From the sequence record OR896822.1: a stretch of DNA of 64,000 nucleotides. The stretch is one strand, 5' to 3'. The notes beneath the pieces are model-generated. The model saw nothing but the letters and a program-made list of their open reading frames with translations. It was not told the DNA's origin and did not search any database. Shown piece by piece: positions 32,236 through 47,821 of the stretch. Numbering within the stretch: the first letter of the stretch is position 1; each line of letters begins with the position of its first letter. This stretch comes from Salmonella phage vB_SenS-3. The position numbers were made by a program, and so were the translations under genes.

Positions 32236-32243
32236 AAATTCAA

Positions 32244-32304: not shown

Positions 32305-32475
32305 ATGAAAACCTTAGTAATTATTGGTGTTAATACTCATGGTATTCGTACTACGAAAACAGTTAAAACTACTAACATTGCTGAAATTACTACAAATCCT
32401 AAGAAGTTTGATTTCGCCAAAGTCTCAGCAGTTATGACAGAACAATCTTTTAACCAAGCACTGGGAATTAAATAA
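32305..32475 (+). CDS. hypothetical protein
   Basis: start set at ATG after RBS GAGAGGAAAG within the conserved leader. Confidence 0.45.
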   Translation: MKTLVIIGVNTHGIRTTKTVKTTNIAEITTNPKKFDFAKVSAVMTEQSFNQALGIK

Positions 32476-32918: not shown

Positions 32919-32927
32919 AAATTAATT

Positions 32928-32956
32928 TGCTAAACGCTTCAAAATTCTGTATAATA
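32928..32956 (+). promoter_or_regulatory. sigma70-type early promoter directly abutting the HNH endonuclease ORF
   Basis: -35 TTGCTA, 17 bp, -10 TATAAT; ATG of 32962 lies 6 nt after the -10 with no RBS. Confidence 0.6.
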
Positions 32957-32961
32957 TATTC

Positions 32962-33444: not shown

Positions 33445-34074
33445 TAATAGTGGGGTGCCGAAACCACTTATGTAACAACACTGCCGTCCTAGTATAATAG
33501 GTATTATTAGGGCTTCACCGCCTGAAGATGTGGGTTCGAGTCCCACGGTCGGAAAGAGTTGGATAACTGGTGCTTCTAATGGCGAAGCAATCGCAGGCAG
33601 TTGCGCACTGCCAAAACCACGCGGTAGTTGGTTCCAGGCTAACCAACCACTCTTGAAAAGTATATACTACGGTTTTGCTTGTTCAGGAAGCTTCGCATCG
33701 AAAATCGGAGGTGCGATTTTATCAGACCGCGTGGAGGACGTCTCTCCGTTAAGTGACGAAAAGTGGGACGATTCAGGTAGAGCTGGATATGGAACACCTA
33801 TACATATGCGGAGTGCGCACAAAGCATATTGCGGTGGTACTAAACGAAATTAGGAGTCATGACCTGCACAAGTTTAGTATGTCATAACCGATGTACATTC
33901 AGTACAAAAACCACTGAAGCTAAGATAGATAGTCACCTTGACTTAAACTGGAAGATATTGTCTGACGGAAGGGCTGCAGAGCTTAATCTGAGGGGGCTGA
34001 CCCTACCTACCGTCGGGTATCTTTAAGAGTTCTTACGAGAACTCTTAAAGATACCTAAACATTAAGGAATACTG

Positions 34075-34584
34075 ATGAATCTAGGAACTACTTGTATATT
34101 TGATCACAGAGAAATGTGTTGCCCACATATTCTGTATGTAGTTCACTTTGCAGAACGTCTTACTCTGGATGAAGCTCGTGAGAAAATGGGTGGAATTACT
34201 GGATATGATTTCCGTGAAGGTGAATACTTTAGCATTGCTCTTGATTACATTGACAATACCCGTCTCTATCATCTAGTGCAGCTAGGGGAAGAAACTGATG
34301 AAGTGAAAATGGCGAAAGATACTCTACGTCGTTATCGTCCTCAGATTCTAGAACGTACACTTCGTGGAGAACGTAGTGACCCATTGTTCTTGAAGTGCTA
34401 TGACGCAGATGTTAATGAGTATCTAGGACAGCAACGGTTTTACACTGAAATCAAAGAGTTTGTTCGTGAAAAATACGACGCTCTACTAATTGATTCCAGA
34501 GCACGACGTGCAGCTAAAAATGCTGAGAAATCTGCTAAAGCAGCACTAGAAAGCCAAACCAAACTGAACGAAATCGTTAAGTGA
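34075..34584 (+). CDS. hypothetical protein
   Basis: 169 aa ORF ending 8 nt before tRNA-Arg. Confidence 0.55.
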   Translation: MNLGTTCIFDHREMCCPHILYVVHFAERLTLDEAREKMGGITGYDFREGEYFSIALDYIDNTRLYHLVQLGEETDEVKMAKDTLRRYRPQILERTLRGERSDPLFLKCYDADVNEYLGQQRFYTEIKEFVREKYDALLIDSRARRAAKNAEKSAKAALESQTKLNEIVK

Positions 34585-34592
34585 TCTAATTT

Positions 34593-34667
34593 CGGGGTGT
34601 AGTCTAAGGGATAGGCAGGAGTCTTCTAAATTCCTTTATGCAGGTTCGAATCCTGTCACCTCGGCCA
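34593..34667 (+). tRNA. tRNA-Arg (anticodon TCT)
   Basis: hand-folded cloverleaf: acceptor CGGGGTG/CACCTCG, anticodon loop CTTCTAA, T-loop TTCGAAT, CCA encoded. Confidence 0.75.
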
Positions 34668-34693
34668 ATCTTATTACCTGTTAGGAAAATAAA

Positions 34694-34894
34694 ATGAAAA
34701 CACGATATATAGTAAAAGTAGTAGGTGAACATTCGCAAGTAAATACCACGGATGTTACAGCACTAGCATTTGAGGTAGTCTCCGGTATAGTCATATTTCA
34801 TAATGGGGATATCAAAGCTCCTGAATTTGCTGTGGATGCTGGCCTGTTTATTTCTGCAACTAAAGTAACTGTAGTAGCTAACTCTTCTAAATAA
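34694..34894 (+). CDS. hypothetical protein
   Basis: 66 aa ORF with RBS AGGAAA. Confidence 0.45.
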   Translation: MKTRYIVKVVGEHSQVNTTDVTALAFEVVSGIVIFHNGDIKAPEFAVDAGLFISATKVTVVANSSK

Positions 34895-34905
34895 TAAGGA
34901 AATAT

Positions 34906-35850
34906 ATGTTTACTAAAAACACTAAAGAACTGACTTCTGAGCAAAAAGTAATTCGTACTATTAAACGTTGGGGTGTTGGTGCTGCTATTAGTCTTGGTGC
35001 TCTTATTCTGGCTCTCAATTCCTATACAGTTGTTCAGGATGGTACTGTTAAGACCCAAACCTTCCTGGGTAAAGTTAGCCCTAATCCTGTATTGCCAGGC
35101 TTCCATATTGTTAACCCATTTGCTTCTTTTGATACTTTTAGTACGAAAGATATTTCCATGAAACTGGATAAACTTCAGGTTCCTAGCCAGGATAAGTTTA
35201 AGTCCACTGTTGACATTACCGTTATGTTGCAGTTTGATGGTGCTAAAGCTCCTATGAACCGTGTTAACGCAGGTACTCAGGATCAAGCTCTGAACAAGTA
35301 CGTTGAAGAGAAGATGCTGTCTACGATTCGTGAGTTTGGTAAGTCTGTACCAAAAGCACAAGATCTGTTCGACGCTAAGATTCAGGCTCAACTGCAAACC
35401 GCTATTCAGCAAGAAGTAGAAGAGTATGCGCGTCCTTATGGTTACACCGTTAAGCAAGTATTCCTTCAGGATATTACTCTGCCACCGGTAATCATGGAAC
35501 AGGTACAGAACACCAAAGTTCGTGAAGAACAAGTTAACGCTGCAAAAGCTGAACTGGCTCGTGTTGAACAAGAAGCACAGCAGAAAGTTAAGCAAGCTGA
35601 GGCGGATCGTTCCGCTCGTGAAAACATGGCAGTAGCTAACGAACGTGACGCAGATGCTAAACTGTACGCAGCTAAGAAAGAAGCTGAAGCTAACGCCGCT
35701 CTGCAACGTACCATTACTCCTGAAATGATTCGTTGGAAGCAGCTGGAAGTTGAAATGCTTCGTGCTGAAAAATACCAAGGTGGTGTACCACAGACTGTTG
35801 TCGGTACTGGCTACGATGGTCAAATGATCATGGATATGCGTAACAAGTAA
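34906..35850 (+). CDS. SPFH/band-7 (prohibitin/HflC-like) membrane protein
   Basis: 314 aa; N-terminal TM helix, SPFH-like core, C-terminal Ala/Glu-rich coiled coil. Confidence 0.7.
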   Translation: MFTKNTKELTSEQKVIRTIKRWGVGAAISLGALILALNSYTVVQDGTVKTQTFLGKVSPNPVLPGFHIVNPFASFDTFSTKDISMKLDKLQVPSQDKFKSTVDITVMLQFDGAKAPMNRVNAGTQDQALNKYVEEKMLSTIREFGKSVPKAQDLFDAKIQAQLQTAIQQEVEEYARPYGYTVKQVFLQDITLPPVIMEQVQNTKVREEQVNAAKAELARVEQEAQQKVKQAEADRSARENMAVANERDADAKLYAAKKEAEANAALQRTITPEMIRWKQLEVEMLRAEKYQGGVPQTVVGTGYDGQMIMDMRNK

Positions 35851-35873
35851 TAGTTACACGTAATCTTCGAACC

Positions 35874-35908
35874 AAGCCCGCGTTTCCTTCGAGAGCGCGG
35901 GCTTTTCT
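35874..35908 (+). terminator. rho-independent terminator after SPFH gene
   Basis: AAGCCCGCG...CGCGGGCTT hairpin followed by TTCTGT. Confidence 0.55.
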
Positions 35909-36054
35909 GTATTTAAGGCAAAAGAAAAAGCCCATAAGTTATTCAACTAAGGTCTTTAGTATTTAATTCTTTAGAATCATATACTATTATTGCAGCAACA
36001 ACGTGCTAACCTTAAGTGCCCTGCGATTTTCCTCTAAAAAGTTAAAAAATTCGA

Positions 36055-36083
36055 TTGCTTGAATGCTAAATTCTCTGTATAAT
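36055..36083 (+). promoter_or_regulatory. sigma70-type early promoter
   Basis: -35 TTGCTT, 17 bp, -10 TATAAT, conserved leader TATAAATTTGAGAGAGGAATCAAAT. Confidence 0.6.
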
Positions 36084-36113
36084 ATATTTATAAATTTGAG
36101 AGAGGAATCAAAT

Positions 36114-37169
36114 ATGATTAAGACTGGTCTAGTAATTGGTAAGTTCGCACCATTAACGCGTGGTCATATTAACCTAATAAACACAGCAGCAACTATGTGT
36201 GAACGAGTTATTGTTGTAGTTAGTCATGATAATCGTTGGCTGGATAAGCAGAACACACGTGATAAGGAAGTATTACAGTTAAAGAATCGACTTCGTTGGT
36301 TAGAACAAACTTACGCGGATATTGAGCACATTTCGGTAGAGTACATTATTGAAGATGATATTCCTGAATATCCGAATGGTTGGCCGGAATATGCTAGAAT
36401 CCTTAATGAAAATTACGGACATTTGCCTGAGATCACCGTTTTCTCTAGCGAACTAGACTATGATGCAGAATATAAGAAATATCTGCCGAAGTTTGGTCAT
36501 TATATTGTAGATTCTGATCGGACTCGTGTTCCAATCTCAGCTACAATGATTCGTAATGATCTTATGAAGTATTGGGAGTTTCTTCCTAGCGTAGTTCGTA
36601 AAGATTACGTGCGTAAGGTTGTAATCATTGGGACTGAAAGCTCGGGAAAGACTACTTTAACAAAATACCTTGCGAAGCTATACAACACTTCGTGGGTAGA
36701 AGAATATGGTCGAACGTATTGTGAAGTTGATCTAGTTGGTAACGAAAATCTGCTTACCAGCGAAGATTATAGTAAAATTGCGTTCAGACACAAAGAGCTA
36801 GAGTTTGAAGCAGAACGTACTGCAAATAAGATCATGTTTGTGGATACAAATGCTTTTATTACTGAGTTCTACCACAGACTTTATGAACATAGTAAGAATC
36901 CTGTGGTTACAGCAATTGCAAAAGAAGAACATTATGATTTAGTAATTGTTCTAGCGCCTACTGTCAAGTGGGTAGATGATGGTTTACGTATTAACTCCGA
37001 TCGTTCAATTACTTCTGAACTATTCGAGCAGATGAAGAAAGAATTTCCAAATCAGTTCCCTGAAGGGCGTACTGTTTACATCGACTCTCCGGACTACAAA
37101 GTTCGTATGGACGAAGCAGTAAACGCAGTAGACTGGCTGATTCATCACTTTAACGTTGGAGAGTTTTAA
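36114..37169 (+). CDS. nadR: NadR-like bifunctional NMN adenylyltransferase / ribosylnicotinamide kinase
   Basis: N-terminal GKFAPLTRGHINLI (nucleotidyltransferase HxGH-type); C-terminal Walker A GTESSGKTT; ATG 36114 after conserved leader RBS. Confidence 0.8.
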   Translation: MIKTGLVIGKFAPLTRGHINLINTAATMCERVIVVVSHDNRWLDKQNTRDKEVLQLKNRLRWLEQTYADIEHISVEYIIEDDIPEYPNGWPEYARILNENYGHLPEITVFSSELDYDAEYKKYLPKFGHYIVDSDRTRVPISATMIRNDLMKYWEFLPSVVRKDYVRKVVIIGTESSGKTTLTKYLAKLYNTSWVEEYGRTYCEVDLVGNENLLTSEDYSKIAFRHKELEFEAERTANKIMFVDTNAFITEFYHRLYEHSKNPVVTAIAKEEHYDLVIVLAPTVKWVDDGLRINSDRSITSELFEQMKKEFPNQFPEGRTVYIDSPDYKVRMDEAVNAVDWLIHHFNVGEF

Positions 37170-37170
37170 T

Positions 37171-37827
37171 ATGACTAACTATCTCGTAAATGACTTTAAA
37201 AACTGGAAACCTCTGGAATATCTGTGGCTGTTCATAGCGGTTGTCTTCATTAGTTTAGCAAACTATAATGGTACAGCTCTAGATTGGGCTACTGCAATAA
37301 CCAATGTGGTTTGTGTTATTCTGGTTGCAAAAGGACGTATTTCCAACTATATTTGGGGCTTAGTGGGTGTTCTTACATATGGTATTACAGCTTTAAACGC
37401 AGATCTTTATGGTAACGCTGCACTAAACCTGCTATACTACGTTCCTATGCAGTTTTATGGAATGTACTTATGGCATAAAAATAAGCCAAGTAATCTGCCA
37501 GATGTTCCAACTAAGGTTCTGACTAAAGCCCAAGCTCTGCTGACTCTAGGGATTCTAGCAGTAGCCACGTTAGGGTATGGTAGTTTCTTAGCTACTACGG
37601 CTGATCCATTTCCAATGTTGGATGCATTTACTGCTGTAGGTAGTGTGATCGCTATGTGGCTTATGGTTAAGCAATATGCCGAGCAGTGGCTGATCTGGAT
37701 TGCTATTAACATTGGTACTGTGTACATTTGGCTTGTAACTGCTCAATCTACAGGTGCATCTTATGCAATCCTAGCAATGTGGCTAGTATTCTTAGGTAAC
37801 TCTATTATAGGAGCCTATAAAGGATAA
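37171..37827 (+). CDS. pnuC: PnuC-like nicotinamide riboside transporter
   Basis: polytopic membrane protein with W/G-rich helices; adjacent and co-oriented with nadR; ATG 37171 after RBS GGAGAG. Confidence 0.7.
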   Translation: MTNYLVNDFKNWKPLEYLWLFIAVVFISLANYNGTALDWATAITNVVCVILVAKGRISNYIWGLVGVLTYGITALNADLYGNAALNLLYYVPMQFYGMYLWHKNKPSNLPDVPTKVLTKAQALLTLGILAVATLGYGSFLATTADPFPMLDAFTAVGSVIAMWLMVKQYAEQWLIWIAINIGTVYIWLVTAQSTGASYAILAMWLVFLGNSIIGAYKG

Positions 37828-37854
37828 TTTGTACGCGTTAACAAATAAAGTAGT

Positions 37855-37878
37855 TATAGCCCTCGCTTAGAGGGCTAT
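37855..37878 (+). terminator. putative terminator hairpin after pnuC
   Basis: ATAGCCCTC-GCTTA-GAGGGCTAT perfect 9-bp hairpin; weak T-run. Confidence 0.45.
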
Positions 37879-37895
37879 TATACAGAAATTTTCAC

Positions 37896-37924
37896 TTGCT
37901 TAATATAGAAAATTTCTGTATAAT
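37896..37924 (+). promoter_or_regulatory. sigma70-type early promoter
   Basis: -35 TTGCTT, 17 bp, -10 TATAAT; leader identical to the nadR promoter leader. Confidence 0.6.
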
Positions 37925-37954
37925 ATATTTATAAATTTGAGAGAGGAATCAAAT

Positions 37955-38251
37955 ATGAAACGCATTGTACTTGCATTGACTCTAGTATCTACTTCTGTAT
38001 TTGCTGCTCCACAACAGGAACTTTGTCAAGTTCAAGTTTGTAATAAGCTAGAACGATTTACTCTAGACATTTGGTCCCACATTAAAGATAATATGGGTGA
38101 ACAGTGTTTTGATATTGTTCTGCCAAAAGAACAAGCTGTTCCTGGGGCTGTTCTCAGCTCAGAATCACGTTGGTGGCAAGGTTCTTCTATCAACCCAACT
38201 AAGAAGTCAGTGACACGTATCAAACAAGTATATCAGTGCAACGTTCAGTAA
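37955..38251 (+). CDS. secreted hypothetical protein
   Basis: signal peptide MKRIVLALTLVSTSVFAAP; paired cysteines. Confidence 0.5.
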   Translation: MKRIVLALTLVSTSVFAAPQQELCQVQVCNKLERFTLDIWSHIKDNMGEQCFDIVLPKEQAVPGAVLSSESRWWQGSSINPTKKSVTRIKQVYQCNVQ

Positions 38252-38259
38252 AATTTCAC

Positions 38260-38288
38260 TTGCTTAATGCCTAAATTTTCTGTATAAT
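38260..38288 (+). promoter_or_regulatory. sigma70-type early promoter
   Basis: -35 TTGCTT, 17 bp, -10 TATAAT. Confidence 0.6.
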
Positions 38289-38321
38289 ATATTCATAAAT
38301 TTGGAAGATTAGGAACTATTT

Positions 38322-38831
38322 ATGTTAGACTATGAGTCTATACTTTATAGATTCCGTTTAGAAGATGGTGTACTGGTGTGGAATCCGCTCTCCGGAAACT
38401 CCAGAGAGGAGAAGATATTTAATACTAAGTTTGCCAATAAACCTGCGGGATCTTTGCACAAAAGCTCTGGGTATATCAGAGTTAACGTTGATCACCAAGA
38501 TTACTTAGCTCATATCATAGTATTTATACTATATTATGGGTATAGGCCGGAAATGGTTGATCATAAAGACTGCAATAAGTTAAATATACATCCTTTAAAT
38601 TTAAGAGCAGCGGATAGTACCACTAATACTCATAATGCTAGTAAATCTTCTAGGAATACTAGCGGATTTAAGGGAGTATCCTACCACAAAGCATCTGGTC
38701 AGTGGCAGGGTAGAATAATGTTTAAAGGTAAGTCATACTCCGCAGGGCTGCACAGTACTCCTGAAGCAGCAAATGAAGCTCTAATTCAACTGAGAGAGAA
38801 ACTTCATGGGGAATATGCCCGAAATAATTAA
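38322..38831 (+). CDS. HNH homing endonuclease with AP2 domain
   Basis: 169 aa; HNH core PEMVDHKDCNKLNIHPLNL; AP2-like GFKGVSYHKASGQWQGRIMFKGKSY; stop abuts tRNA-Ser. Confidence 0.75.
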   Translation: MLDYESILYRFRLEDGVLVWNPLSGNSREEKIFNTKFANKPAGSLHKSSGYIRVNVDHQDYLAHIIVFILYYGYRPEMVDHKDCNKLNIHPLNLRAADSTTNTHNASKSSRNTSGFKGVSYHKASGQWQGRIMFKGKSYSAGLHSTPEAANEALIQLREKLHGEYARNN

Positions 38832-41318: not shown

Positions 41319-41431
41319 CGGCCCGCCATATTCTATGTAGGATTAAGTAAACCGGTAGCCAACCAGCTATCATTACTGATATCGAATTCAGTCACAGATA
41401 CCATTTTTCACTAACAACTGAGGAAATAGAT

Positions 41432-41620: not shown

Positions 41621-42202
41621 ATGCACGGAATATCCTTACCCATTCCAGGGTTTGAGGAGTACTTAGTAAGTTTGGATGGGTTAGTATTTAGTATCAAATC
41701 AAACAAAATACTAACCCCAATAACCAGTAATTACGGATACTTATCTATACGTCTCCATAAAAATGGTCAACAGAGAAATACCGGTGTACATAGGATTTTA
41801 GCATGTGCATTTAAGAAATTACCAAGTCTAGACTCTGAACTAGAAGTTGACCATATTAACACAGACATTACTTATTGGGGTCTTAATAACTTACAAGTGC
41901 TCACAAAAGAGCAGCATCTAGAAAAGACTTTAAAAGATAAAGGATTTAGTAAACTAAACCATGATAATTGTTGTAAGGATTGTGGTAAAGCTATTTCTTT
42001 AAAAGCTGAAAAATGTCAGGAGTGCTCTTCACATAAACCAAAAGATATCTCTATAACTAAAGAAATAATCGAGGTTACAGTAAGAGAGCTAGGCTGGTCA
42101 GGTGCAGGGAGAAAGTTAAATTATTCAGATAATGGGTTGCGTAAAAGATACACTTCTTTAGGAGGCAATCCTAAAGAACTTAAAAAGTTAAAGGTACTAT
42201 AG
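41621..42202 (+). CDS. HNH homing endonuclease (NUMOD-like N-terminus)
   Basis: 193 aa; motifs HRILACAF...VDHINTD...NNLQ; Cys-rich C-terminal region; stop codon overlaps 5' end of tRNA-Asp. Confidence 0.7.
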   Translation: MHGISLPIPGFEEYLVSLDGLVFSIKSNKILTPITSNYGYLSIRLHKNGQQRNTGVHRILACAFKKLPSLDSELEVDHINTDITYWGLNNLQVLTKEQHLEKTLKDKGFSKLNHDNCCKDCGKAISLKAEKCQECSSHKPKDISITKEIIEVTVRELGWSGAGRKLNYSDNGLRKRYTSLGGNPKELKKLKVL

Positions 42203-42267
42203 TCTAACGGTTAGGATACTCCCCTGTCACGGGAGAGGTAGGGTTTCGATTACCCTTAGTACCGCCA
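42193..42267 (+). tRNA. tRNA-Asp (anticodon GTC)
   Basis: acceptor GGTACTA/TAGTACC perfect; anticodon stem CTCCC/GGGAG, loop CTGTCAC; T-arm AGGGT-TTCGATT-ACCCT; CCA encoded. Confidence 0.85.
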
Positions 42268-42350: not shown

Positions 42351-42553
42351 AACAAATAGAGTAAAGGCTACAGTAGGTGCACCCTTACGGACTGCTACAC
42401 CGGACTCTATTCATTAACAAACATTCTAGCGTGGTGGAGAGGGGACACCAGCTGTGCGAGGGTAGAAGCTTGTTCGATTCAAGTGAAAGAATGGTTCTCG
42501 TAAATCCGCAGCAGTGATAGTAGGTTCAAGTCCTACCTAGATTGACTTATTAT

Positions 42554-42627: not shown

Positions 42628-42878
42628 AATTTAGGTTTCTGCTTCCTAGAGAACGGACTCCTAGATAAACAAGGCGATGAGTTTCCGGCCGGTTCTAGTC
42701 GCTGAAAATCCTCCCGACCAGGTAGGTGTAGGTAAACGAAAGTTTACTTATTGAGTAGGTTCCGATAGATCGGCGGATCTATTCTGGCATTTAAGAGAAG
42801 TCTCGCAAACTTCTTTGTCAGCAGAGCGTTTGAAGCGTGAGGTGGCCTACACAATAAGTAAATTTATTAAAAACTCAT

Positions 42879-42907
42879 TTGCTATTTCACTTAATTCTCT
42901 TTATAAT
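42879..42907 (+). promoter_or_regulatory. sigma70-type promoter heading a tRNA transcription unit
   Basis: -35 TTGCTA, 17 bp, -10 TATAAT; tRNA-Pro begins about 33 nt downstream. Confidence 0.6.
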
Positions 42908-42939
42908 ATATCTTATAAAGTGAGTTAACAAAGAATATT

Positions 42940-43017
42940 CTCCGTGTAGCTCAGTTTGGCCAGAGCGTTCCGTTTGGGGCGGTAGGGTCGGGGGTTCAAA
43001 TCCTCCCACGGAGACCA
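42940..43017 (+). tRNA. tRNA-Pro (anticodon TGG)
   Basis: acceptor CTCCGTG/CACGGAG perfect; D-stem GCTC/GAGC; anticodon loop TTTGGGG; T-arm GGGGG-TTCAAAT-CCTCC; CCA encoded. Confidence 0.8.
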
Positions 43018-43023
43018 AACAAT

Positions 43024-43101
43024 TGCGGGTTAGATCTCTGGTAGAGATCGCTAGTCTCATAAGCTAGAAAGAGGTAGGTTAGATTCCTACACCCGCTTCC
43101 A
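43024..43101 (+). tRNA. tRNA with CAT anticodon (Met or Ile2), U1/U72 mismatch
   Basis: D-stem GATC/GATC; anticodon stem CTAGT/GCTAG, loop CTCATAA; T-arm GTAGG-TTAGATT-CCTAC; CCA encoded. Confidence 0.7.
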
Positions 43102-43120
43102 ATTTAATAGAGGATACGAA

Positions 43121-43285
43121 ATGAAATTATTTCGATTGGTAGTAAGTGATAGACGGTCTAGCAAAGATCGTTCGAAGTATACCTTAGCCCATTATGGGAA
43201 AGATGAAAATGAAGTAATGGCTGAATTTGGTATTAATCATCGCTACTTAGAAGTTTACTCTATTAAGGAAGTTTATCCGTATTAA
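43121..43285 (+). CDS. small hypothetical protein (54 aa) between tRNAs
   Basis: ATG-initiated ORF found by eye (not in the six-frame list, under 60 aa); ends at the nucleotide before tRNA-Lys. Confidence 0.3.
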   Translation: MKLFRLVVSDRRSSKDRSKYTLAHYGKDENEVMAEFGINHRYLEVYSIKEVYPY

Positions 43286-43363
43286 GGGTCGTTAGCTCAA
43301 TTGGTTAGTAGCACTTGCCTTTTAAGCAATAGGTTGAAGGTTCGAGTCCTTCACGACCCACCA
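43286..43363 (+). tRNA. tRNA-Lys (anticodon TTT)
   Basis: acceptor GGGTCGT/ACGACCC perfect; anticodon loop CTTTTAA; T-arm GAAGG-TTCGAGT-CCTTC; CCA encoded. Confidence 0.8.
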
Positions 43364-43372
43364 AATTACTTT

Positions 43373-43446
43373 GCTCGGTTAGTTTAATGGGAGAACCCCG
43401 TCTTTACACGGCGGTTGCGATAGTTCGATTCTATCACCGAGTACCA
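43373..43446 (+). tRNA. tRNA-Val (anticodon TAC)
   Basis: acceptor GCTCGGT/ACCGAGT; anticodon stem CCGTC/GGCGG, loop TTTACAC; T-arm GATAG-TTCGATT-CTATC; CCA encoded. Confidence 0.75.
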
Positions 43447-43471
43447 ATTAACTCAAAATAAGGAATTGCAA

Positions 43472-43825
43472 ATGCAATTATCAAGCAAGATTCAAGGCTA
43501 TTTTGGTCATGTAACAATGGAGTTCGCTATCTCTAAAGGTTGGGATTTCGAGCAAGATCTAGCTGAGTTCTACAAAGATATTGATCTGAACGTACCATAC
43601 ATGGGACTCTCCACTGGTCAAGAGATCACAGAAGGCGATGTGTTCAAGGCAAGTCAAGGTGAGGTAACACCTAGTTTTGCCAAGTTCTGGTTAGGACTTA
43701 CTTTGAAGGAAGATGCACCAGAGGATGGTGTGGTTATGCAGAGTATGCACTCTGGAAGCTCTGATTACCTTTTCGTTAGCGACGTTAAGGAACTACAAGA
43801 AATCGCTAAAAATGTACTTGCTTGA
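43472..43825 (+). CDS. hypothetical protein
   Basis: ATG 43472 after RBS AAGGAA (listed ORF starts at TTG 43466); acidic protein. Confidence 0.5.
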   Translation: MQLSSKIQGYFGHVTMEFAISKGWDFEQDLAEFYKDIDLNVPYMGLSTGQEITEGDVFKASQGEVTPSFAKFWLGLTLKEDAPEDGVVMQSMHSGSSDYLFVSDVKELQEIAKNVLA

Positions 43826-43846
43826 TGCTTAATTTCTTGTTATAAT
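43818..43846 (+). promoter_or_regulatory. sigma70-type promoter overlapping the 3' end of CDS 43472..43825
   Basis: -35 TTGCTT, 17 bp, -10 TATAAT; leader then forms an 8-bp hairpin GATGAGGA/TCCTCATC. Confidence 0.55.
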
Positions 43847-44108
43847 ATTTATATAAATTGATGAGGAGAAATCCTCATCAAAGTTCACTAAGGTATTAGC
43901 TCGACCTAGGGCTGGCTGCCAAAAAGCACAATTGCAATTAGACCCCTAATGGCGGGGGATACTTTGCAATAAGTTCTAGATTAGTCCACTAGATTCAGTG
44001 GCAACTGAATAGTGTATCGGGTTTGTGAAGAGCGGTTATCCTCTACTGGCTAATGTCTGAGGGTAATACGCACACCGAGCTAATAGCCTTAGTAAACTTA
44101 AAGATTTT

Positions 44109-44187
44109 GGGGAATGGGTCTGCTTGGAGTGGACACCTCGCTTGCACCGAGGATATCAGAAGAGTTCGAATCTCTTATTCTCCACCA
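44109..44187 (+). tRNA. tRNA-Ala (anticodon TGC), copy 1
   Basis: acceptor with G3-U70 wobble pair (Ala identity element); anticodon stem CCTCG/CGAGG, loop CTTGCAC; CCA encoded. Confidence 0.65.
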
Positions 44188-44192
44188 AATTC

Positions 44193-44268
44193 GGGGTCAT
44201 AGGTTATTTGGTTAAACTTACTGCCTTGCAAGCAGTGGAACTCAGTTCAATTCTGAGTGACTCCACCA
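44193..44268 (+). tRNA. tRNA-Ala (anticodon TGC), copy 2
   Basis: acceptor GGGGTCA/TGACTCC with G3-U70; anticodon stem ACTGC/GCAGT, loop CTTGCAA; T-arm CTCAG-TTCAATT-CTGAG; CCA encoded. Confidence 0.75.
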
Positions 44269-44287
44269 AACAAATTAAGGAAATAAT

Positions 44288-44506
44288 ATGGTATTCTTAG
44301 CAGCCTCTGTAGTTCTTGCAGCTTTAGCACTAGCTATCTATTTTAGAACTATTAAAGATTTAGCTAAAGAAAAGAAAACTTTCTTTACTGATTATTCTTG
44401 GGGCGCTCCATATAACGTCCGCTTTATCAGCTTAGAAGCTATGCTGATAATGGTATTCAGTGGCATAGGTTCCATTGTTGCAGGGTTACTATTTATTTCT
44501 AACTAA
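44288..44506 (+). CDS. small membrane protein
   Basis: 72 aa with two hydrophobic helices. Confidence 0.45.
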   Translation: MVFLAASVVLAALALAIYFRTIKDLAKEKKTFFTDYSWGAPYNVRFISLEAMLIMVFSGIGSIVAGLLFISN

Positions 44507-44513
44507 ATAAAAT

Positions 44514-44594
44514 GGGGATGTGGCGAAATTGGCAGACGCGCTAGATTTAGGTTCTAGTCTTCGGGTGTGGGTTCGAGTCCCTCCATCCCTACCA
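44514..44594 (+). tRNA. tRNA-Leu (anticodon TAG), long variable arm
   Basis: acceptor GGGGATG/CATCCCT; anticodon stem CTAGA/TCTAG perfect, loop TTTAGGT; T-loop TTCGAGT; CCA encoded. Confidence 0.7.
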
Positions 44595-44768
44595 AACATT
44601 GGATTAACTCATGATGAAAACTCCTATAACTGATATCTGGTTAGCTGTTAATACATCAACTAAAGAGTATGTGTTTATAGAGTATGGTCAGAGGTATGAC
44701 CAAAAGATGTATAATCTCATACTTCCAGTATCTGCTAATGAAGTTTATGATTTAATCCTGAGATCTAC

Positions 44769-44861
44769 GGAAGAGCAAATCGATTAGGTGACGAAAACCG
44801 CTTGGAAAGTGGCTGACTTGTTAAAGCAGGCTTGAGAATTCGAATCTCTCTTCTTCCGCCA
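44769..44861 (+). tRNA. tRNA-Ser (anticodon GGA), long variable arm
   Basis: acceptor GGAAGAG/TTCTTCC; anticodon loop TTGGAAA; T-loop TTCGAAT; CCA encoded; 93 nt. Confidence 0.6.
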
Positions 44862-44882
44862 AACAACTAATAGGGAATATAA

Positions 44883-45125
44883 ATGAAAGTCAAGATTATG
44901 ATGTTGGATTTAGCTAATGATAAGTTTTTCTTGCGTCATACATTCCCTAGTAAGCAAGCTTTAGAGTTTCATATCAAGTACGCAATAGGCATGAAACTTC
45001 CTGAGCGAGAAATATTTGATAAAGCATGTGATACTGGAGTTATTTATGTATGGCAAACAACCTATCATGATAATCCAGAAGATCTTCGAAAAGAAGTAGA
45101 ACAAATACTAGAAGATAGGACGTAG
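44883..45125 (+). CDS. hypothetical protein
   Basis: 80 aa ORF; 3' end overlaps the start of tRNA-Ser(TGA). Confidence 0.5.
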   Translation: MKVKIMMLDLANDKFFLRHTFPSKQALEFHIKYAIGMKLPEREIFDKACDTGVIYVWQTTYHDNPEDLRKEVEQILEDRT

Positions 45126-45199
45126 TGGTATGTAACCGGTCTTGAAAACCGGCCCGCTGTAGTGATACGGTGATGGTTCGACTCCATTATCTTCTGCCA
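45109..45199 (+). tRNA. tRNA-Ser (anticodon TGA), long variable arm
   Basis: acceptor AGAAGAT/ATCTTCT perfect; anticodon stem CCGGT/ACCGG perfect, loop CTTGAAA; T-arm GATGG-TTCGACT-CCATT; CCA encoded. Confidence 0.75.
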
Positions 45200-45524
45200 A
45201 ATCTTGAAGTATGCCGGAATCGGTAGACGGGGCTTCCTAAAGGGCGTAAGGGGAACATCCACTCCTCATAAGATACCCGAAAACGAGGCTGAGATAACTG
45301 GTCTATCTCGTGAAGGTTCGAGTCCTTCTGCTTCTTGATATTCATCAATGGCTCAAAGTGTAACGGTGCTATTTGATGCTCTTAGTAAGACTTTCCCGAC
45401 ATGCGTTCGGGAGTAAGCTGCTAAGGCTAGAGTAGAAGAGTTTCGGAGAGCCGCCACAATTGAAGTCTTTAGAATGGGTATCGCCCTTTAGCCCCTCCGA
45501 AAGGGATAACTAGAGATTTCAATT

Positions 45525-45601
45525 GTGGTTATATCATAATTGGTTAATGATCCTGATTGTGAATCAGGCCTATGTGGATTCGAATTCCACTAACCACCCC
45601 A
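45525..45601 (+). tRNA. tRNA-His (anticodon GTG)
   Basis: acceptor GTGGTTA/TAACCAC perfect; D-stem TCAT/ATGA; anticodon stem CCTGA/TCAGG, loop TTGTGAA; T-arm GTGGA-TTCGAAT-TCCAC; CCA encoded. Confidence 0.85.
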
Positions 45602-45607
45602 AATATT

Positions 45608-45682
45608 GCGTCCTTATTTCAATGGAAAGAATGTAAAGCTACGAACTTTACGATCGGGGTTCGATTCCCTGAGGATGCACCA
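45608..45682 (+). tRNA. tRNA-Arg (anticodon ACG)
   Basis: acceptor GCGTCCT/AGGATGC; anticodon stem TAAAG/CTTTA perfect, loop CTACGAA; T-loop TTCGATT; CCA encoded. Confidence 0.75.
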
Positions 45683-45706
45683 ATTAACTTATACAGGAAC
45701 TAAAAT

Positions 45707-45907
45707 ATGGCTGATTTCTGCAAAGAATGCTCTATCGATATGTGGGGCAAAGATACTGGTGATCTTTCTGGTCTGATTACAGAAGCCGAAGTTAAAGAAG
45801 GCTATGGTGCTGTTGTAATCTGTGAAGGTTGTGGTATTATTCGTGTTGACCATAATGGTAAACGTCTAGAAGAACCAGATCCAATTGCCACGGTTCCTGT
45901 AGAATAA
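45707..45907 (+). CDS. small Cys-rich protein
   Basis: 66 aa; CKEC...CEGC cysteine pairs (zinc-ribbon-like). Confidence 0.45.
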   Translation: MADFCKECSIDMWGKDTGDLSGLITEAEVKEGYGAVVICEGCGIIRVDHNGKRLEEPDPIATVPVE

Positions 45908-45914
45908 AAATTAT

Positions 45915-45990
45915 TGGGATGTAGATCAATTGGCAGATCGTCGGCCTCTGACTCCGAAGGTTCCACGTTCGATCCGTGGCATCCCAGCCA
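45915..45990 (+). tRNA. tRNA-Gln (anticodon CTG)
   Basis: acceptor TGGGATG/CATCCCA perfect; D-stem GATC/GATC; anticodon loop CTCTGAC; T-arm CCACG-TTCGATC-CGTGG; CCA encoded. Confidence 0.7.
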
Positions 45991-45996
45991 AACAAT

Positions 45997-46072
45997 TGGA
46001 GAGTAGTGTAACGGTTAGCACAACGGCCTTTGACTCCGTTAATGGTAGGTTCGATTCCTCCTTCTCCAGCCA
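45997..46072 (+). tRNA. tRNA-Gln (anticodon TTG)
   Basis: acceptor TGGAGAG/TTCTCCA; anticodon stem ACGGC/TCCGT, loop CTTTGAC; T-loop TTCGATT; CCA encoded. Confidence 0.65.
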
Positions 46073-46078
46073 ATTTAT

Positions 46079-46153
46079 GCGTGATTAGTTCAGTGGCTAG
46101 AATAACTGGCTTCCAACCAGTAGACACGAGTTCGACTCTCGTATCCCGCACCA
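46079..46153 (+). tRNA. tRNA-Gly (anticodon TCC)
   Basis: anticodon stem ACTGG/CCAGT perfect, loop CTTCCAA; T-arm ACGAG-TTCGACT-CTCGT perfect; CCA encoded. Confidence 0.75.
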
Positions 46154-46169
46154 AATATAAGGAAACGTT

Positions 46170-46391
46170 ATGGACGTTTTTGAGTTTCGTAATAAAAACC
46201 CCAATAGACGAGTTTTAATTATTGGTGAAACATATAGAGCTTATGAGCAAGAAGATGGTTCGGTTTTATTAAATGATGAAAAACAAGGCTATAGCTTTCA
46301 TCCAGAAGAAACATATGAAGAATTTCGTACTAAGTTTCTTTTACCAGACTGGCTAGCAATAGCTGAGCAAAGAGAATCCAAAGATGGCTGA
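46170..46391 (+). CDS. hypothetical protein
   Basis: 73 aa ORF with RBS AAGGAAA. Confidence 0.45.
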   Translation: MDVFEFRNKNPNRRVLIIGETYRAYEQEDGSVLLNDEKQGYSFHPEETYEEFRTKFLLPDWLAIAEQRESKDG

Positions 46392-46535
46392 TAATCTAAA
46401 GCTAAAAGTAGATAAACGAATGAAGTGCGTTGAGGTTGAGTTGGGTGAAGAACGTTTAAAACTCTCCTTCGAATTCTTACAGCAGTTGGCTATGACAGTA
46501 ATGTCTGATAAGTCTCCTGTATTTGAAAAAGAAAT

Positions 46536-46558
46536 CCCGTTGAAATAACGGGTTTATT
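46536..46558 (+). terminator. putative terminator hairpin just upstream of tRNA-Thr
   Basis: CCCGTT-GAAATA-AACGGG hairpin followed by TTTATT. Confidence 0.45.
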
Positions 46559-46632
46559 GCTCCTAAAGCATTGCTGGCGATGCAGTTGCCTTGTAAGCAT
46601 CTGAACCGGGTTCGATTCCTGGTGGGAGCACC
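46559..46632 (+). tRNA. tRNA-Thr (anticodon TGT)
   Basis: acceptor GCTCCTA/TGGGAGC; D-stem GCAT/ATGC; anticodon loop CTTGTAA; T-arm CCGGG-TTCGATT-CCTGG; CCA encoded. Confidence 0.75.
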
Positions 46633-46647
46633 AAATTTAAAAATTCA

Positions 46648-46677
46648 TTTGCCTTCTCTCTTATTTCTTGTTATAAT
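46648..46677 (+). promoter_or_regulatory. sigma70-type early promoter
   Basis: -35 TTGCCT, 18 bp, -10 TATAAT, conserved leader. Confidence 0.55.
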
Positions 46678-46707
46678 ATTTATATAAATTAATGAGAGGG
46701 AAACCAA

Positions 46708-47001
46708 ATGAAACGTTATCTTTCTGTCGTATTCCAAACGGGTGGTCAACGCTACACTTATGAATTTCCTGAGTCCTGGAAAATTAAAGAAGGTGATCAA
46801 GTTGTTGTATTAACACCTCGTGAAGGCTTCAAAGTAGTAACGGTTAAACAAGTATTTCCAAAAGATCACGAACCATCTAAGTCTATTCAGTACAAGATGA
46901 TTCATGGTCTAGTTCGTAAAGTACCACGAACTGAGGTAGAAGTAGATAAGACTGGTGAAGCTAAATACCAGTATACTTCTTACTTAGACGAGTTGTTATA
47001 A
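46708..47001 (+). CDS. hypothetical protein
   Basis: 97 aa ORF with conserved leader RBS. Confidence 0.5.
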   Translation: MKRYLSVVFQTGGQRYTYEFPESWKIKEGDQVVVLTPREGFKVVTVKQVFPKDHEPSKSIQYKMIHGLVRKVPRTEVEVDKTGEAKYQYTSYLDELL

Positions 47002-47207
47002 TGAGAATTACTTTCACAGAAAAGATTATGGGCAATGGTGTTATGATCATTACCGCATGGGATGGTAATCAGTGGTGTAGTGTTTCAGGTATTAAGCCTG
47101 AAGAACAAACACTAGAAAATATCTCAAAGATTAAGCGAAGAATGGCAGAACGTGCACGACTTCCAGGTGCTCCTAGAAATGGTAAACGTTCTGCAATTAA
47201 ATGTTAA
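47001..47207 (+). CDS. hypothetical protein
   Basis: 68 aa ORF; start overlaps previous stop (ATGA). Confidence 0.45.
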   Translation: MRITFTEKIMGNGVMIITAWDGNQWCSVSGIKPEEQTLENISKIKRRMAERARLPGAPRNGKRSAIKC

Positions 47208-47208
47208 T

Positions 47209-47285
47209 GCTTCGGTAGCTTAGCGATCTAAAGCACTCGGCTGATAACCGAGAGATCGGGGGTTTAAATCCCTCCCGGAGTACCA
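47209..47285 (+). tRNA. tRNA-Ile (anticodon GAT)
   Basis: acceptor GCTTCGG/CCGGAGT with G-U pairs; D-stem GCTT/AAGC; anticodon stem CTCGG/CCGAG perfect, loop CTGATAA; CCA encoded. Confidence 0.75.
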
Positions 47286-47381
47286 AATTTAGGAAGTAAG
47301 ACTATGCGTCCAGGAAAGTTTAAAAAAGCTAATTGGTCTAAAGAGTATAAAGAATACTTACTTAGTCTAGTAAAACATAAT

Positions 47382-47454
47382 AGTTAGTTGGCAGAGAGGT
47401 TATGCACCTCCTTCATACGGAGCGCCTACAGTGGTTCAAATCCACTACTAACTA
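47382..47454 (+). tRNA. tRNA with CAT anticodon (Met or Ile2)
   Basis: acceptor AGTTAGT/ACTAACT perfect; anticodon loop TTCATAC; T-arm AGTGG-TTCAAAT-CCACT perfect; CCA not encoded. Confidence 0.65.
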
Positions 47455-47821
47455 CTAAACAGAGGATCAGATCATTGTACCAGATCCTGCTGAGAAGAGA
47501 GTCCACATTCTATAAATGGCCGGGCGTGACAGCAGGAAGTAGACTGCAACTCCATGCTATACAGGAGTATAAATGTAGAAGCTAGGGCTTTAGATAGCCA
47601 TTGTCTTAGCGTGAGCAATCACGTAGTTGCAACAGACCAGGGGATAGCAACGTTAAAATCAAAGCTCCTGTGCTTATTAAACTGAATGGGACTATCAATC
47701 CACAAGCCGGACTACGAGCGATTATCGGGTATTCACTTAATAAGCAAGCCTGCCTTCCAGTTTTTATCTTGCTTCTGGGTTAACAAAAAGCTGAGCCAAA
47801 TTCTAGCATCAGGGAGATCTA

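What the first reader, a model, noticed from the sequence alone, without database searches (positions are those of the whole stretch)
44611..46548. Tiny ORFs interleaved with and overlapping tRNA genes
Several short ATG-initiated ORFs with ribosome-binding sites run up to or into tRNA genes: a 58 aa ORF at 44611..44787 overlaps the start of tRNA-Ser(GGA), 44883..45125 overlaps tRNA-Ser(TGA), a 54 aa ORF at 43121..43285 ends at tRNA-Lys, and a 54 aa ORF at 46384..46548 sits before tRNA-Thr. Translation and tRNA processing would compete on the same transcript, which could couple tRNA maturation to ribosome occupancy.
Basis: seen in the sequence. Interest (0 to 1): 0.4.

Follow-up and report, generated by a model that had tools for sequence, protein, structure and literature searches.

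The report
Small phage genes packed between tRNAs
These are real, conserved small protein genes that T5-like phages pack between their tRNA genes, some running a few bases into the next tRNA; phage T5 and near-identical genomes already annotate this layout, so the finding is correct but ordinary.

Summary
The window is a T5-like Salmonella phage (Epseptimavirus), 99.9% identical to phages RA40 and PMBT36. All four ORFs exist at the stated coordinates. Comparison with 19 related loci shows each is under purifying selection. In frame-blind alignments pN/pS is 0.07-0.43 in the annotated frame, except the closest o58 pair at 0.65, against 0.6-8.6 in the other frames. Substitutions are mostly third-position and the reading frames stay open. 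They are genes, not chance ORFs.

- The 80-aa ORF ends 16 nt inside tRNA-Ser(UGA).
- The 58-aa ORF ends 19 nt inside a degenerate tRNA-Ser(GGA) copy that ARAGORN and Rfam do not call here.
- The two 54-aa ORFs stop 0 and 10 nt before tRNA-Lys and tRNA-Thr.

The T5 RefSeq record shows the same layout, including ORFs that overlap tRNAs. Across Demerecviridae, 32 of 107 ORF-to-tRNA junctions overlap, most often by exactly 10 nt. That places the stop codon at conserved tRNA positions 8-10 (TAG/TAA). The C-terminal tails change with whichever tRNA follows.

I read the overlaps as a by-product of tight packing and cassette exchange. Competition between ribosomes and tRNA processing is physically plausible and was already proposed for T4 segB and the T5 homing endonucleases. 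It is untested. What the proteins do is unknown.

The parts
41621..42202 (+). 193-aa homing endonuclease ORF ending 10 nt inside tRNA-Asp (42193-42267); its stop is the TAG at tRNA positions 8-10
   Evidence: ORF; Pfam NUMOD4 above cut-off and HNH_3 below cut-off; overlap; the homologue is annotated F-TflII/hegD in MET_P1-88
42860..42923 (+). sequence homologous to T5 early promoter P13a
   Evidence: blastn 86% over 64 nt; consensus scan finds TTGCTA-17-TATAAT at 42879-42907; promoter name from the T5 RefSeq record
43121..43285 (+). 54-aa gene (o54a, orthologue of T5.065, PHROG 6221); TAA abuts tRNA-Lys(UUU)
   Evidence: 377 phage records; gap 0-2 nt in 7 of 9 relatives; dN/dS 0.07-0.32
43286..43363 (+). 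tRNA-Lys(UUU)
43797..43872 (+). sequence homologous to T5 early promoter P13b
   Evidence: blastn 91% over 76 nt; T5 annotation
44288..44506 (+). 72-aa gene predicted from its sequence to be a membrane protein (o72, PHROG 15739); stops 7 nt before tRNA-Leu(UAG)
44514..44594 (+). tRNA-Leu(UAG)
44611..44787 (+). 58-aa gene (o58, PHROG 11405); its last 19 nt lie in the tRNA-Ser(GGA)-like sequence
   Evidence: 170 records, down to 41% aa identity; pN/pS 0.30-0.38 against distant homologues, 0.65 against the closest divergent one
44769..44861 (+). degenerate tRNA-Ser(GGA) copy: a T insertion in the D loop creates the TAG stop, and G53-to-A breaks the T stem
   Evidence: not called; comparison with the Ace copy; relaxed ARAGORN; fold
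44883..45125 (+). 80-aa gene (o80, PHROG 32148); its last 16 nt lie in tRNA-Ser(UGA)
   Evidence: 83 records in two genera; pN/pS 0.25-0.27
45110..45199 (+). tRNA-Ser(UGA); folds as a cloverleaf
   Evidence: compensatory differences from the T5 copy
45203..45456 (+). homologues of T5 stable RNAs rna1 (tRNA-like) and rnaI
   Evidence: blastn 80% and 92%; names from the T5 RefSeq record
45707..45907 (+). 66-aa cysteine-rich gene (o66, orthologue of T5.062); stops 7 nt before tRNA-Gln(CUG)
   Evidence: dN/dS 0.04-0.13; matches in Felixounavirus phages
46170..46391 (+). 73-aa gene (o73, orthologue of T5.060); its stop overlaps the start of o54b
46384..46548 (+). 54-aa gene (o54b, orthologue of T5.059, Pfam DUF7293); stops 10 nt before tRNA-Thr
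   Evidence: 411 records; pN/pS 0.07-0.19; confident beta3-alpha model with pLDDT 91
46536..46552 (+). conserved hairpin with the o54b stop codon in its loop, 6 nt before tRNA-Thr
   Evidence: z = -2.6; wobble variants and one double compensatory variant
46559..46633 (+). tRNA-Thr(UGU)
46629..46703 (+). sequence homologous to T5 early promoter P11
   Evidence: blastn 93% over 75 nt; consensus scan with extended -10 at 46649-46677
47001..47207 (+). 68-aa gene (o68); stops 1 nt before tRNA-Ile
47304..47387 (+). 27-aa ORF (orthologue of T5.057) ending 6 nt inside tRNA-Met (47382-47455)
   Evidence: sequence; blastn 95% to T5.057; T5 annotation

Best explanation
The ORFs are genuine small accessory genes of the early region of a T5-like phage. 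They sit as cassettes in the gaps of the tRNA gene cluster. They are most likely transcribed together with the tRNAs and small stable RNAs, as long precursors from a few early promoters. Host tRNA-processing enzymes then cut the tRNAs out: RNase P at the 5' ends, and RNase E plus exonucleases at the 3' ends. That leaves short mRNAs with a 14-27 nt leader carrying the ribosome-binding site and almost no 3' untranslated region.

Where an ORF has no stop codon of its own, translation runs into the next tRNA gene until it meets a stop triplet that the tRNA provides. In about half of the tRNAs this is TAG or TAA at tRNA positions 8-10. In the Ser tRNAs it is a TAG in the D arm. The overlaps are therefore a by-product of tight packing and of cassette exchange at tRNA borders.

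One consequence follows by inference only. A full-length protein from an overlapping ORF can be made only from a precursor not yet cut by RNase P, which would lower or time-limit its yield.

Shown: the ORFs are coding and conserved; the anatomy of the junctions; homology to the annotated T5 layout. Inferred: co-transcription, the processing steps, and any effect on expression. The function of the proteins is unknown.
For: Identity:
- The window is 99.9% identical to Salmonella phages RA40 and PMBT36.
- The same ORFs are annotated as hypothetical proteins in phage S113, including the overlap of a CDS with tRNA-Ser-TGA.

Coding:
- NG86 dN/dS is 0.03-0.32 for the four ORFs against divergent syntenic homologues, apart from one o58 pair at 0.61.
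- In frame-blind nucleotide alignments, pN/pS is 0.07-0.43 in the annotated frame (one o58 pair 0.65) and 0.6-8.6 in the other two frames.
- In the same alignments, third-position excess gives p of 1e-3 to 1e-5 in 10 of 14 pairs. There are no stops in the annotated frame in 13 of 14 homologues, and 4-12 stops in each other frame.
- tblastn finds 377, 170, 83 and 411 phage records for the four ORFs, down to 41-61% amino-acid identity.
- Each ORF matches a PHROG family, and one matches Pfam DUF7293.
- The 54-aa DUF7293 protein gives a confident fold, pLDDT 91.

Layout:
- ORF starts lie 14-27 nt after the preceding tRNA. Stops lie 0-10 nt before the next tRNA or 9-23 nt inside it.
- The T5 RefSeq record shows the same layout, with promoters, stable RNAs and four ORF/tRNA overlaps. 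The window has homologues of P13a, P13b, P11, rna1, rnaI and T5.057.
- No consensus terminator lies between these promoters, apart from one weak hairpin.

Overlaps look incidental:
- 32 of 107 distinct junctions overlap, and 14 of them by exactly 10 nt.
- 15 of 29 tRNAs in the window carry a stop triplet at positions 8-10.
- The tails of the o80 family (LEDRT, LEGRA, LTGE, LEEQID) follow the downstream Ser tRNA.
- The junctions of o58 orthologues vary from a 22-nt overlap to a 1-nt gap.

Expression and dispensability:
- phiR2-01 g054.1 ends 10 nt inside tRNA-Lys and was detected by mass spectrometry.
- T5 mutants with deletions in the tRNA region that cover the coordinates of T5.065 and T5.062 are described as carrying non-essential deletions (PMC11464382; coordinates).
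Against: - No transcript, processing or translation data exist for this phage. Co-transcription rests on homology to sequences annotated as promoters in T5 and on the absence of consensus terminators.
- The o80 family reads into a Ser tRNA in every homologue examined, across two genera and three kinds of Ser tRNA. That is more regular than a purely incidental arrangement would need to be.
- o58 has a poor Shine-Dalgarno sequence, and its closest divergent pair shows weak constraint (pN/pS 0.65).
- The junction survey used mechanically called ORFs of at least 40 aa, and a few of them are spurious.
Confidence: 0.72

Rival explanations
1. The overlaps are an evolved control device. RNase P cutting at the tRNA 5' end removes or strands the stop codon of the upstream ORF. 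This would yield a non-stop or unprotected mRNA and limit the dose of the small protein or endonuclease. Conversely, a ribosome finishing the ORF would unfold the acceptor stem and delay maturation of that tRNA.
For: - The stop of the 80-aa ORF lies inside a Ser tRNA in all six distinct homologues and in a metagenomic seventh, although the tRNA partner differs.
- 30% of junctions overlap, and most of the rest have gaps of 10 nt or less.
- Homing endonuclease ORFs, whose dose is expected to be kept low, are among the overlapping ones.
- The same mechanism was proposed for T4 segB and the T5 F-Tfl genes (PMC2330249).
Against: - The overlap is not kept among o58 orthologues.
- The o54a and o54b orthologues keep their own stop outside the tRNA in all relatives where that tRNA follows.
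- The overlapping residues are not conserved.
- The overlap lengths match the positions of stop triplets that tRNAs carry anyway.
- One overlapped 'tRNA' in this window is degenerate.
- No experiment has tested the idea.
Confidence: 0.15
2. This explains the origin of the layout and complements the main explanation. The conserved tRNA genes act as recombination anchors and as targets of homing endonucleases. Small ORF cassettes are exchanged between phages by gene conversion at tRNA borders, and the overlaps are the scars of those joins.
For: - HNH or GIY-YIG-like endonuclease ORFs occupy the same slots in the window, T5, Ace, PMBT22, DaisyDussoix and phiR2-01.
- In Ace the o54a homologue is fused in frame to such an ORF.
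- The slot between tRNA-Leu and tRNA-Ser(GGA) holds o58 in the window, hegC in T5 and an o80 homologue in a metagenomic contig.
- Many relatives align only from the tRNA-Ser(GGA) position onward.
- Published comparisons attribute most local differences among T5-like genomes to homing endonuclease genes (PMC10644984).
Against: - No cleavage sites were mapped here.
- Most of the small ORFs have no endonuclease next to them in this window.
- Exchange by ordinary homologous recombination would give the same picture.
Confidence: 0.4
3. The ORFs are chance open frames in AT-rich spacers and are not translated.
For: - They are short (54-80 aa).
- They have no assigned function.
- One has a weak ribosome-binding site.
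Against: - Purifying selection acts in the annotated frame only.
- The frames stay open in homologues down to 41-61% amino-acid identity.
- One of them gives a confident predicted fold.
Confidence: 0.02

Closest known systems
tRNA gene region of bacteriophage T5 (RefSeq NC_005859; genes T5.057-T5.076, hegA-hegD, stable RNAs rna1, rnaI, rnaIII)
   Same: Same order of tRNAs, promoters and stable RNAs. Direct orthologues: T5.065 for the 43121 ORF, T5.059 and T5.060 for the 46384 and 46170 ORFs, T5.062 for the 45707 ORF, and T5.057 for the 27-aa ORF. T5 also has ORFs ending inside tRNA genes: hegC in tRNA-Ser(GGA), hegD in tRNA-Gln, T5.069 in tRNA-Asn and T5.057 in tRNA-Met.
   Different: The 58-aa and 80-aa ORFs gave no tblastn match in the fetched T5 tRNA-region locus. 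In T5 the slot before tRNA-Ser(GGA) holds the endonuclease hegC, and the two Ser tRNAs are adjacent. The window's tRNA-Ser(GGA) is a different sequence type and is degenerate.
T4 tRNA gene cluster with segB
   Same: A protein gene embedded among phage tRNA genes. The authors proposed that tRNA-Arg maturation cuts the transcript between the last codon and the stop codon of segB, lowering its expression. They mention the same idea for the T5 F-Tfl endonucleases (PMC2330249).
   Different: segB is a GIY-YIG homing endonuclease, whereas the ORFs here are small proteins of unknown function. The phage family is different, and no sequence relation was tested.
tRNA punctuation of animal mitochondrial transcripts (from my own knowledge, not tested here)
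   Same: Protein genes and tRNA genes alternate with almost no spacer on one precursor. Excision of the tRNAs defines the mRNA ends. Some coding regions abut or overlap tRNAs.
   Different: This is an analogy only. Here there are several internal promoters, ribosome-binding sites in short leaders and complete stop codons. There is no evidence that processing is needed for translation.
Mixed tRNA-mRNA operons of E. coli, such as thrU-tyrU-glyT-thrT-tufB (from my own knowledge, not tested here)
   Same: tRNAs and a translated mRNA share one promoter and are separated by RNase P and RNase E.
   Different: The protein gene there is large, lies downstream of the tRNAs and does not overlap them.

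Membership tests
Small-ORF families of the T5-like tRNA region (PHROG 6221, 11405, 32148, 5919; Pfam DUF7293) | Full-length match to the family profile | tested here: met
   PHROG E-values of 5e-35 to 7e-52 over the full length. DUF7293 scores 132 bits against a cut-off of 27.
Small-ORF families of the T5-like tRNA region (PHROG 6221, 11405, 32148, 5919; Pfam DUF7293) | Same position relative to the tRNA genes as in relatives (synteny) | tested here: met
   o54a lies between tRNA-fMet and tRNA-Lys, and o54b before tRNA-Thr, in nearly all loci. o58 follows tRNA-Leu. o80 precedes a Ser tRNA.
Small-ORF families of the T5-like tRNA region (PHROG 6221, 11405, 32148, 5919; Pfam DUF7293) | Protein-coding constraint in the annotated frame | tested here: met
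   dN/dS of 0.03-0.32 apart from one o58 pair at 0.61. The alternative frames are near or above 1 and full of stops.
Small-ORF families of the T5-like tRNA region (PHROG 6221, 11405, 32148, 5919; Pfam DUF7293) | The protein is made during infection | not testable with these tools
   Only indirect support: a neighbouring ORF of phiR2-01 (g054.1) that overlaps tRNA-Lys was detected by mass spectrometry. The supplementary tables that would list the others are not held.
Canonical tRNA (for 44769-44861, the claimed tRNA-Ser(GGA)) | Detected as a cloverleaf by ARAGORN at default settings and by the Rfam tRNA model at its gathering score | tested here: not met
   Absent. Found only with the ARAGORN threshold lowered to 90%, and in a shifted register.
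Canonical tRNA (for 44769-44861, the claimed tRNA-Ser(GGA)) | Intact T stem, including the G53-C61 pair | tested here: not met
   GAGAA/CTCTC here against GAGAG/CTCTC in phage Ace, which gives an A-C mismatch next to the loop. The minimum-energy fold lacks the T arm.
Canonical tRNA (for 44769-44861, the claimed tRNA-Ser(GGA)) | Homology to a recognised tRNA-Ser(GGA), with a 7-nt anticodon loop carrying GGA | tested here: met
   Three differences from the ARAGORN-called copy in phage Ace; the loop is TTGGAAA.
Mixed tRNA-mRNA transcription unit (tRNA-punctuated precursor) | Same strand, a shared promoter and no terminator between ORFs and tRNAs | tested here: inconclusive
   All features are on the + strand. 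There are homologues of T5 promoters P13a, P13b and P11. No consensus terminator lies between them except a weak hairpin at 46536. No transcript data exist.
Mixed tRNA-mRNA transcription unit (tRNA-punctuated precursor) | RNase P and RNase E processing releases the mRNAs | not testable with these tools
   Needs RNA end mapping.
Translation-coupled control of a downstream RNA gene | The overlap or abutment is conserved among orthologues | tested here: inconclusive
   Kept for o80 (overlap of 16 or 9 nt in all homologues). Not kept for o58 (from a 22-nt overlap to a 1-nt gap, or a different neighbour). o54a and o54b never overlap.

The most novel reading that the evidence does not exclude
The junctions where an ORF's stop codon lies inside a tRNA could form a real switch. 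The clearest case is the 80-aa family, which reads into a Ser tRNA in every homologue examined. Under this reading, only transcripts not yet cut by RNase P give complete protein. Cut transcripts would become non-stop mRNAs handled by tmRNA, and ribosome traffic would in turn delay maturation of that tRNA. The phage would then set the dose and timing of small proteins, and of the linked tRNA, through the host's tRNA-processing capacity.
Probability: 0.12. Interest if true: 0.5.

Novelty: already known. Interest (0 to 1): 0.2.

Why it matters
For annotation, these short ORFs in T5-like tRNA clusters should be kept as genes, and a stop codon inside a tRNA gene is normal in this family rather than an error. 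For biology, the tRNA cluster is an accessory region. Published work shows that T5 tRNAs counter host defences that cut tRNAs (PARIS and retron Eco7; PMC11464382 and PMC10644984). The conserved small proteins packed among the tRNAs have no known function and would be reasonable candidates to test for related roles. The specific idea that tRNA processing limits expression of the overlapping ORFs has been in print since 2008 and is still untested.

Tried and rejected
- Chance ORFs: rejected by codon-level tests.
- Function from profile libraries: Pfam, PHROGs and NCBIfam give only families of unknown function.
- Structure of the 80-aa protein: only 4 homologue clusters in the large protein database, and the model has low confidence (pLDDT 57), so I did not search with it.
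- Structure of the 54-aa DUF7293 protein: the model is confident (pLDDT 91), but Foldseek against the PDB gave nothing significant (best E = 0.37, TM 0.43).
- Rfam at a permissive threshold over 44550-45560: no family for the tRNA-Ser(GGA)-like sequence or for the stable-RNA region.
- Proteomic evidence for the exact orthologues in phiR2-01: the supplementary tables are not held.
- Literature searches for T5 ribosome profiling or transcript maps of this region found nothing usable.
- The hairpin at 46536 as an intrinsic terminator: the T tract after it is not conserved (T5 has ATCATC), so I do not call it a terminator.
Full report
**What the window is.** The region matches 613 phage records. 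Salmonella phages RA40, PMBT36 and vB_SenS-3 are 99.9% identical over 43000-47500. The taxonomy of the annotated relatives is Demerecviridae, Markadamsvirinae, Epseptimavirus, that is, T5-like phages. ARAGORN finds 28 tRNA genes between 33.4 and 47.5 kb, all on the + strand. Rfam confirms 27 tRNA matches.

**Checking the observation.** All four ORFs are present at the stated coordinates.
- The TAA of the 43121-43285 ORF is followed immediately by tRNA-Lys(UUU) at 43286.
- The 44883-45125 ORF ends with a TAG 16 nt inside tRNA-Ser(UGA), 45110-45199.
- The 46384-46548 ORF stops 10 nt before tRNA-Thr.
- The 44611-44787 ORF ends 19 nt inside a sequence with the anticodon loop of tRNA-Ser(GGA), at 44769-44861.

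That last sequence is not called by ARAGORN at default settings or by Rfam, even at E<=10. It differs in three ways from the copy in phage Ace, which ARAGORN does call. A T is inserted in the D loop, which creates the ORF's TAG stop. There is a G-to-T change in the variable loop. And G53 is changed to A, which breaks the T stem. ARAGORN finds it only at a 90% threshold, and its minimum-energy fold is not a cloverleaf, whereas the Ace copy does fold as one. So one of the two claimed overlaps is with a degenerate tRNA copy.

The ribosome-binding sites are uneven. The 43121 ORF has GAGG, the 44883 ORF has AGGGA and the 44611 ORF has little. The 46384 ORF starts inside the stop region of the upstream 73-aa ORF (ATGGCTGA), which suggests translational coupling.

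**Are the ORFs genes?** I fetched 19 related loci from five or more genera and one metagenomic contig.
- tblastn against the phage collection finds the four proteins in 377, 170, 83 and 411 records. Identities go down to 61%, 41%, 60% and 59%.
- Nei-Gojobori dN/dS against divergent syntenic homologues is 0.07-0.32 for the 43121 ORF, 0.13-0.25 for the 44611 ORF (0.61 for its closest divergent pair), 0.16 for the 44883 ORF and 0.03-0.13 for the 46384 ORF. Six neighbouring ORFs give similar values.
- Alignments found through protein similarity could bias this result. I therefore repeated the test on frame-blind nucleotide alignments in all three frames. The annotated frame gives pN/pS of 0.07-0.43 (0.65 for one o58 pair), and the other frames give 0.6-8.6. 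Third-position excess is significant in 10 of 14 pairs (p of 1e-3 to 1e-5). The homologues have no stops in the annotated frame in 13 of 14 cases, against 4-12 stops in each other frame.
- All four match PHROG families of unknown function, and one matches Pfam DUF7293. The DUF7293 protein gives a confident three-strand-plus-helix model (pLDDT 91).

**The layout is already annotated.** The T5 RefSeq record shows the same architecture.
- T5.065 abuts tRNA-Lys(UUU).
- T5.060 and T5.059 precede tRNA-Thr.
- T5.062 follows tRNA-His.
- The stable RNAs rna1, rnaI and rnaIII lie between tRNA-Ser1 and tRNA-His.
- Promoters P13a, P13b and P11 are marked.
- Four ORFs end inside tRNA genes: hegC in tRNA-Ser2(GGA) by 14 nt, hegD in tRNA-Gln2, T5.069 in tRNA-Asn and T5.057 in tRNA-Met.

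The window has clear homologues of P13a (42860-42923), P13b (43797-43872), P11 (46629-46703), rna1 and rnaI (45203-45456) and T5.057 (47304-47387). Phage S113, a close relative, annotates the same CDS/tRNA-Ser-TGA overlap.

**Anatomy of the junctions.** In the window and its relatives, ORF starts lie 14-27 nt after the 3' end of the preceding tRNA. Stops lie 0-10 nt before the next tRNA or 9-23 nt inside it. I made a mechanical survey of ATG-started ORFs of at least 40 aa next to + strand tRNAs in all loci. It gave 107 distinct junctions: 32 overlap the tRNA and 62 have gaps of 0-10 nt. The commonest overlap is exactly 10 nt (14 cases). A few of these ORFs are spurious, so the numbers are approximate.

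The 10-nt class places the stop codon at tRNA positions 8-10, and 15 of the 29 tRNAs in the window have TAG or TAA there. In half of all tRNA-by-frame combinations, a stop occurs within the first 25 nt of the tRNA. An ORF that lacks its own stop will therefore usually terminate a few codons into the tRNA.

**Tails follow the tRNA.**
- The 80-aa family ends ...ILEDRT before one tRNA-Ser(UGA) variant and ...ILEGRA before another.
- It ends ...ILTGE before the Sugarlandvirus tRNA-Ser.
- It ends ...ILEEQID in a metagenomic contig, where it sits before a tRNA-Ser(GGA)-like sequence.
- The 58-aa family ends ...TEEQID(R) when it reads into tRNA-Ser(GGA). It ends with its own TAA 1 nt before that tRNA in phage smaug. 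In PMBT22 it ends ...LTEVRA, reading into a sequence resembling the 5' part of tRNA-Ser(UGA) that ARAGORN does not call there.

The conserved protein thus ends where the tRNA begins, and the last 2-6 residues are whatever the tRNA encodes.

**Cassette behaviour.** The slot between tRNA-Leu(UAG) and tRNA-Ser(GGA) holds the 58-aa ORF in the window, the endonuclease hegC in T5 and DaisyDussoix, and an 80-aa-family member in the metagenomic contig. In Ace, a GIY-YIG-like ORF is fused to the 54-aa ORF. In PMBT22 and phiR2-01 it lies between that ORF and tRNA-Lys, ending 10 nt inside the tRNA. The window itself has a NUMOD4/HNH endonuclease ORF ending 10 nt inside tRNA-Asp. Published comparisons attribute most local differences among T5-like genomes to homing endonuclease genes (PMC10644984).

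**Mechanism.** The best-supported reading is that these are small accessory early genes transcribed with the tRNAs and stable RNAs from a few promoters. Host tRNA processing then separates them, and the overlaps are a by-product of tight packing and cassette exchange. Co-transcription and processing are inferred, not shown.

One consequence would follow. For the overlapping ORFs, RNase P cleavage would remove the stop codon, so a complete protein needs an uncut precursor. This idea is already in print for T4 segB/tRNA-Arg and for the T5 F-Tfl endonucleases (PMC2330249).

Translation of such an ORF is possible. phiR2-01 g054.1, which ends 10 nt inside tRNA-Lys, was discovered by six-frame mass spectrometry (PMC8624392).

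The region is dispensable in the laboratory. T5 deletion mutants lacking 29191-32442 or 30661-38625 are described as carrying non-essential deletions (PMC11464382). Those ranges cover the coordinates of T5.065 and T5.062.

It is physically reasonable and cannot be excluded. The strongest point in its favour is that the 80-aa family reads into a Ser tRNA in every homologue examined. Against it are four points. The junctions of the 58-aa family vary. The two 54-aa ORFs always keep their own stop outside the tRNA. The overlapping tails are not conserved. And one overlapped tRNA here is degenerate. I give the evolved-switch reading about 0.12-0.15.

**Function of the proteins.** It is unknown. Pfam, PHROGs and NCBIfam give no function. 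The 80-aa model is of low confidence. The confident 54-aa model has no significant structural match in the PDB.

**Verdict.** The ORFs are real genes. The arrangement is a known, annotated property of T5 and its relatives, and the proposed coupling has a published precedent but no test. Interest is low, at 0.2.

Noticed in passing
window 46536-46552: A hairpin (CCCGTTGAAATAACGGG) has the stop codon of the 54-aa ORF in its loop and lies 6 nt before tRNA-Thr. It is kept in 13 T5-like loci. S113, Ace and S116 carry G-U wobble variants, and UTK0009 has a double compensatory variant (CCCAC...GTGGG) in which synonymous codon changes are matched by changes after the stop. The T tract after it is not conserved, so it is probably not a terminator. 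It may protect the mRNA 3' end after RNase P cleavage.
   Followed up: partly
window 45203-45456, 43894-44028, 42755-42853, 42422-42546 and 41331-41403: Homologues (77-92% identity) of the T5 'stable RNAs with unknown functions': rna1 (tRNA-like), rnaI, rna2H, rnaIV, rna2 and rna3. No Rfam family matches 45203-45456, the only one of these searched at a permissive threshold.
   Followed up: partly
window 33482-33555: ARAGORN calls a tRNA with anticodon TCA, which would read the UGA stop codon and is therefore labelled tRNA-SeC. Its Rfam tRNA score is only 33 bits. Some relatives annotate a 'tRNA-TERM'.
   Followed up: no
window 47304-47387: A 27-aa ORF with a good AGGAAG ribosome-binding site, 95% identical at nucleotide level to T5.057, ends 6 nt inside tRNA-Met (47382-47455).
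   Followed up: partly
window 41621-42202: A 193-aa NUMOD4/HNH homing endonuclease ORF (its homologue is annotated F-TflII/hegD in a relative) ends 10 nt inside tRNA-Asp, using the TAG at tRNA positions 8-10 as its stop.
   Followed up: yes
window 45707-45907: A 66-aa protein with two CxxC pairs is identical across Epseptimavirus relatives (dN/dS 0.04-0.13). It also has about 71% nucleotide matches in unrelated Felixounavirus-type phages, so this small gene is shared between phage families.
   Followed up: no
window 44109-44187 and 44193-44268: Two adjacent tRNA-Ala(UGC) genes. The first is called by ARAGORN but does not reach the Rfam gathering score, and several relatives annotate only one. 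It may be another decaying duplicate.
   Followed up: no
L004 (phage Ace) 1135-1776: The homologue of the 54-aa ORF is fused in frame to a GIY-YIG-like endonuclease (213 aa) that ends 10 nt inside tRNA-Lys. In PMBT22 and phiR2-01 the two are separate, overlapping genes.
   Followed up: partly
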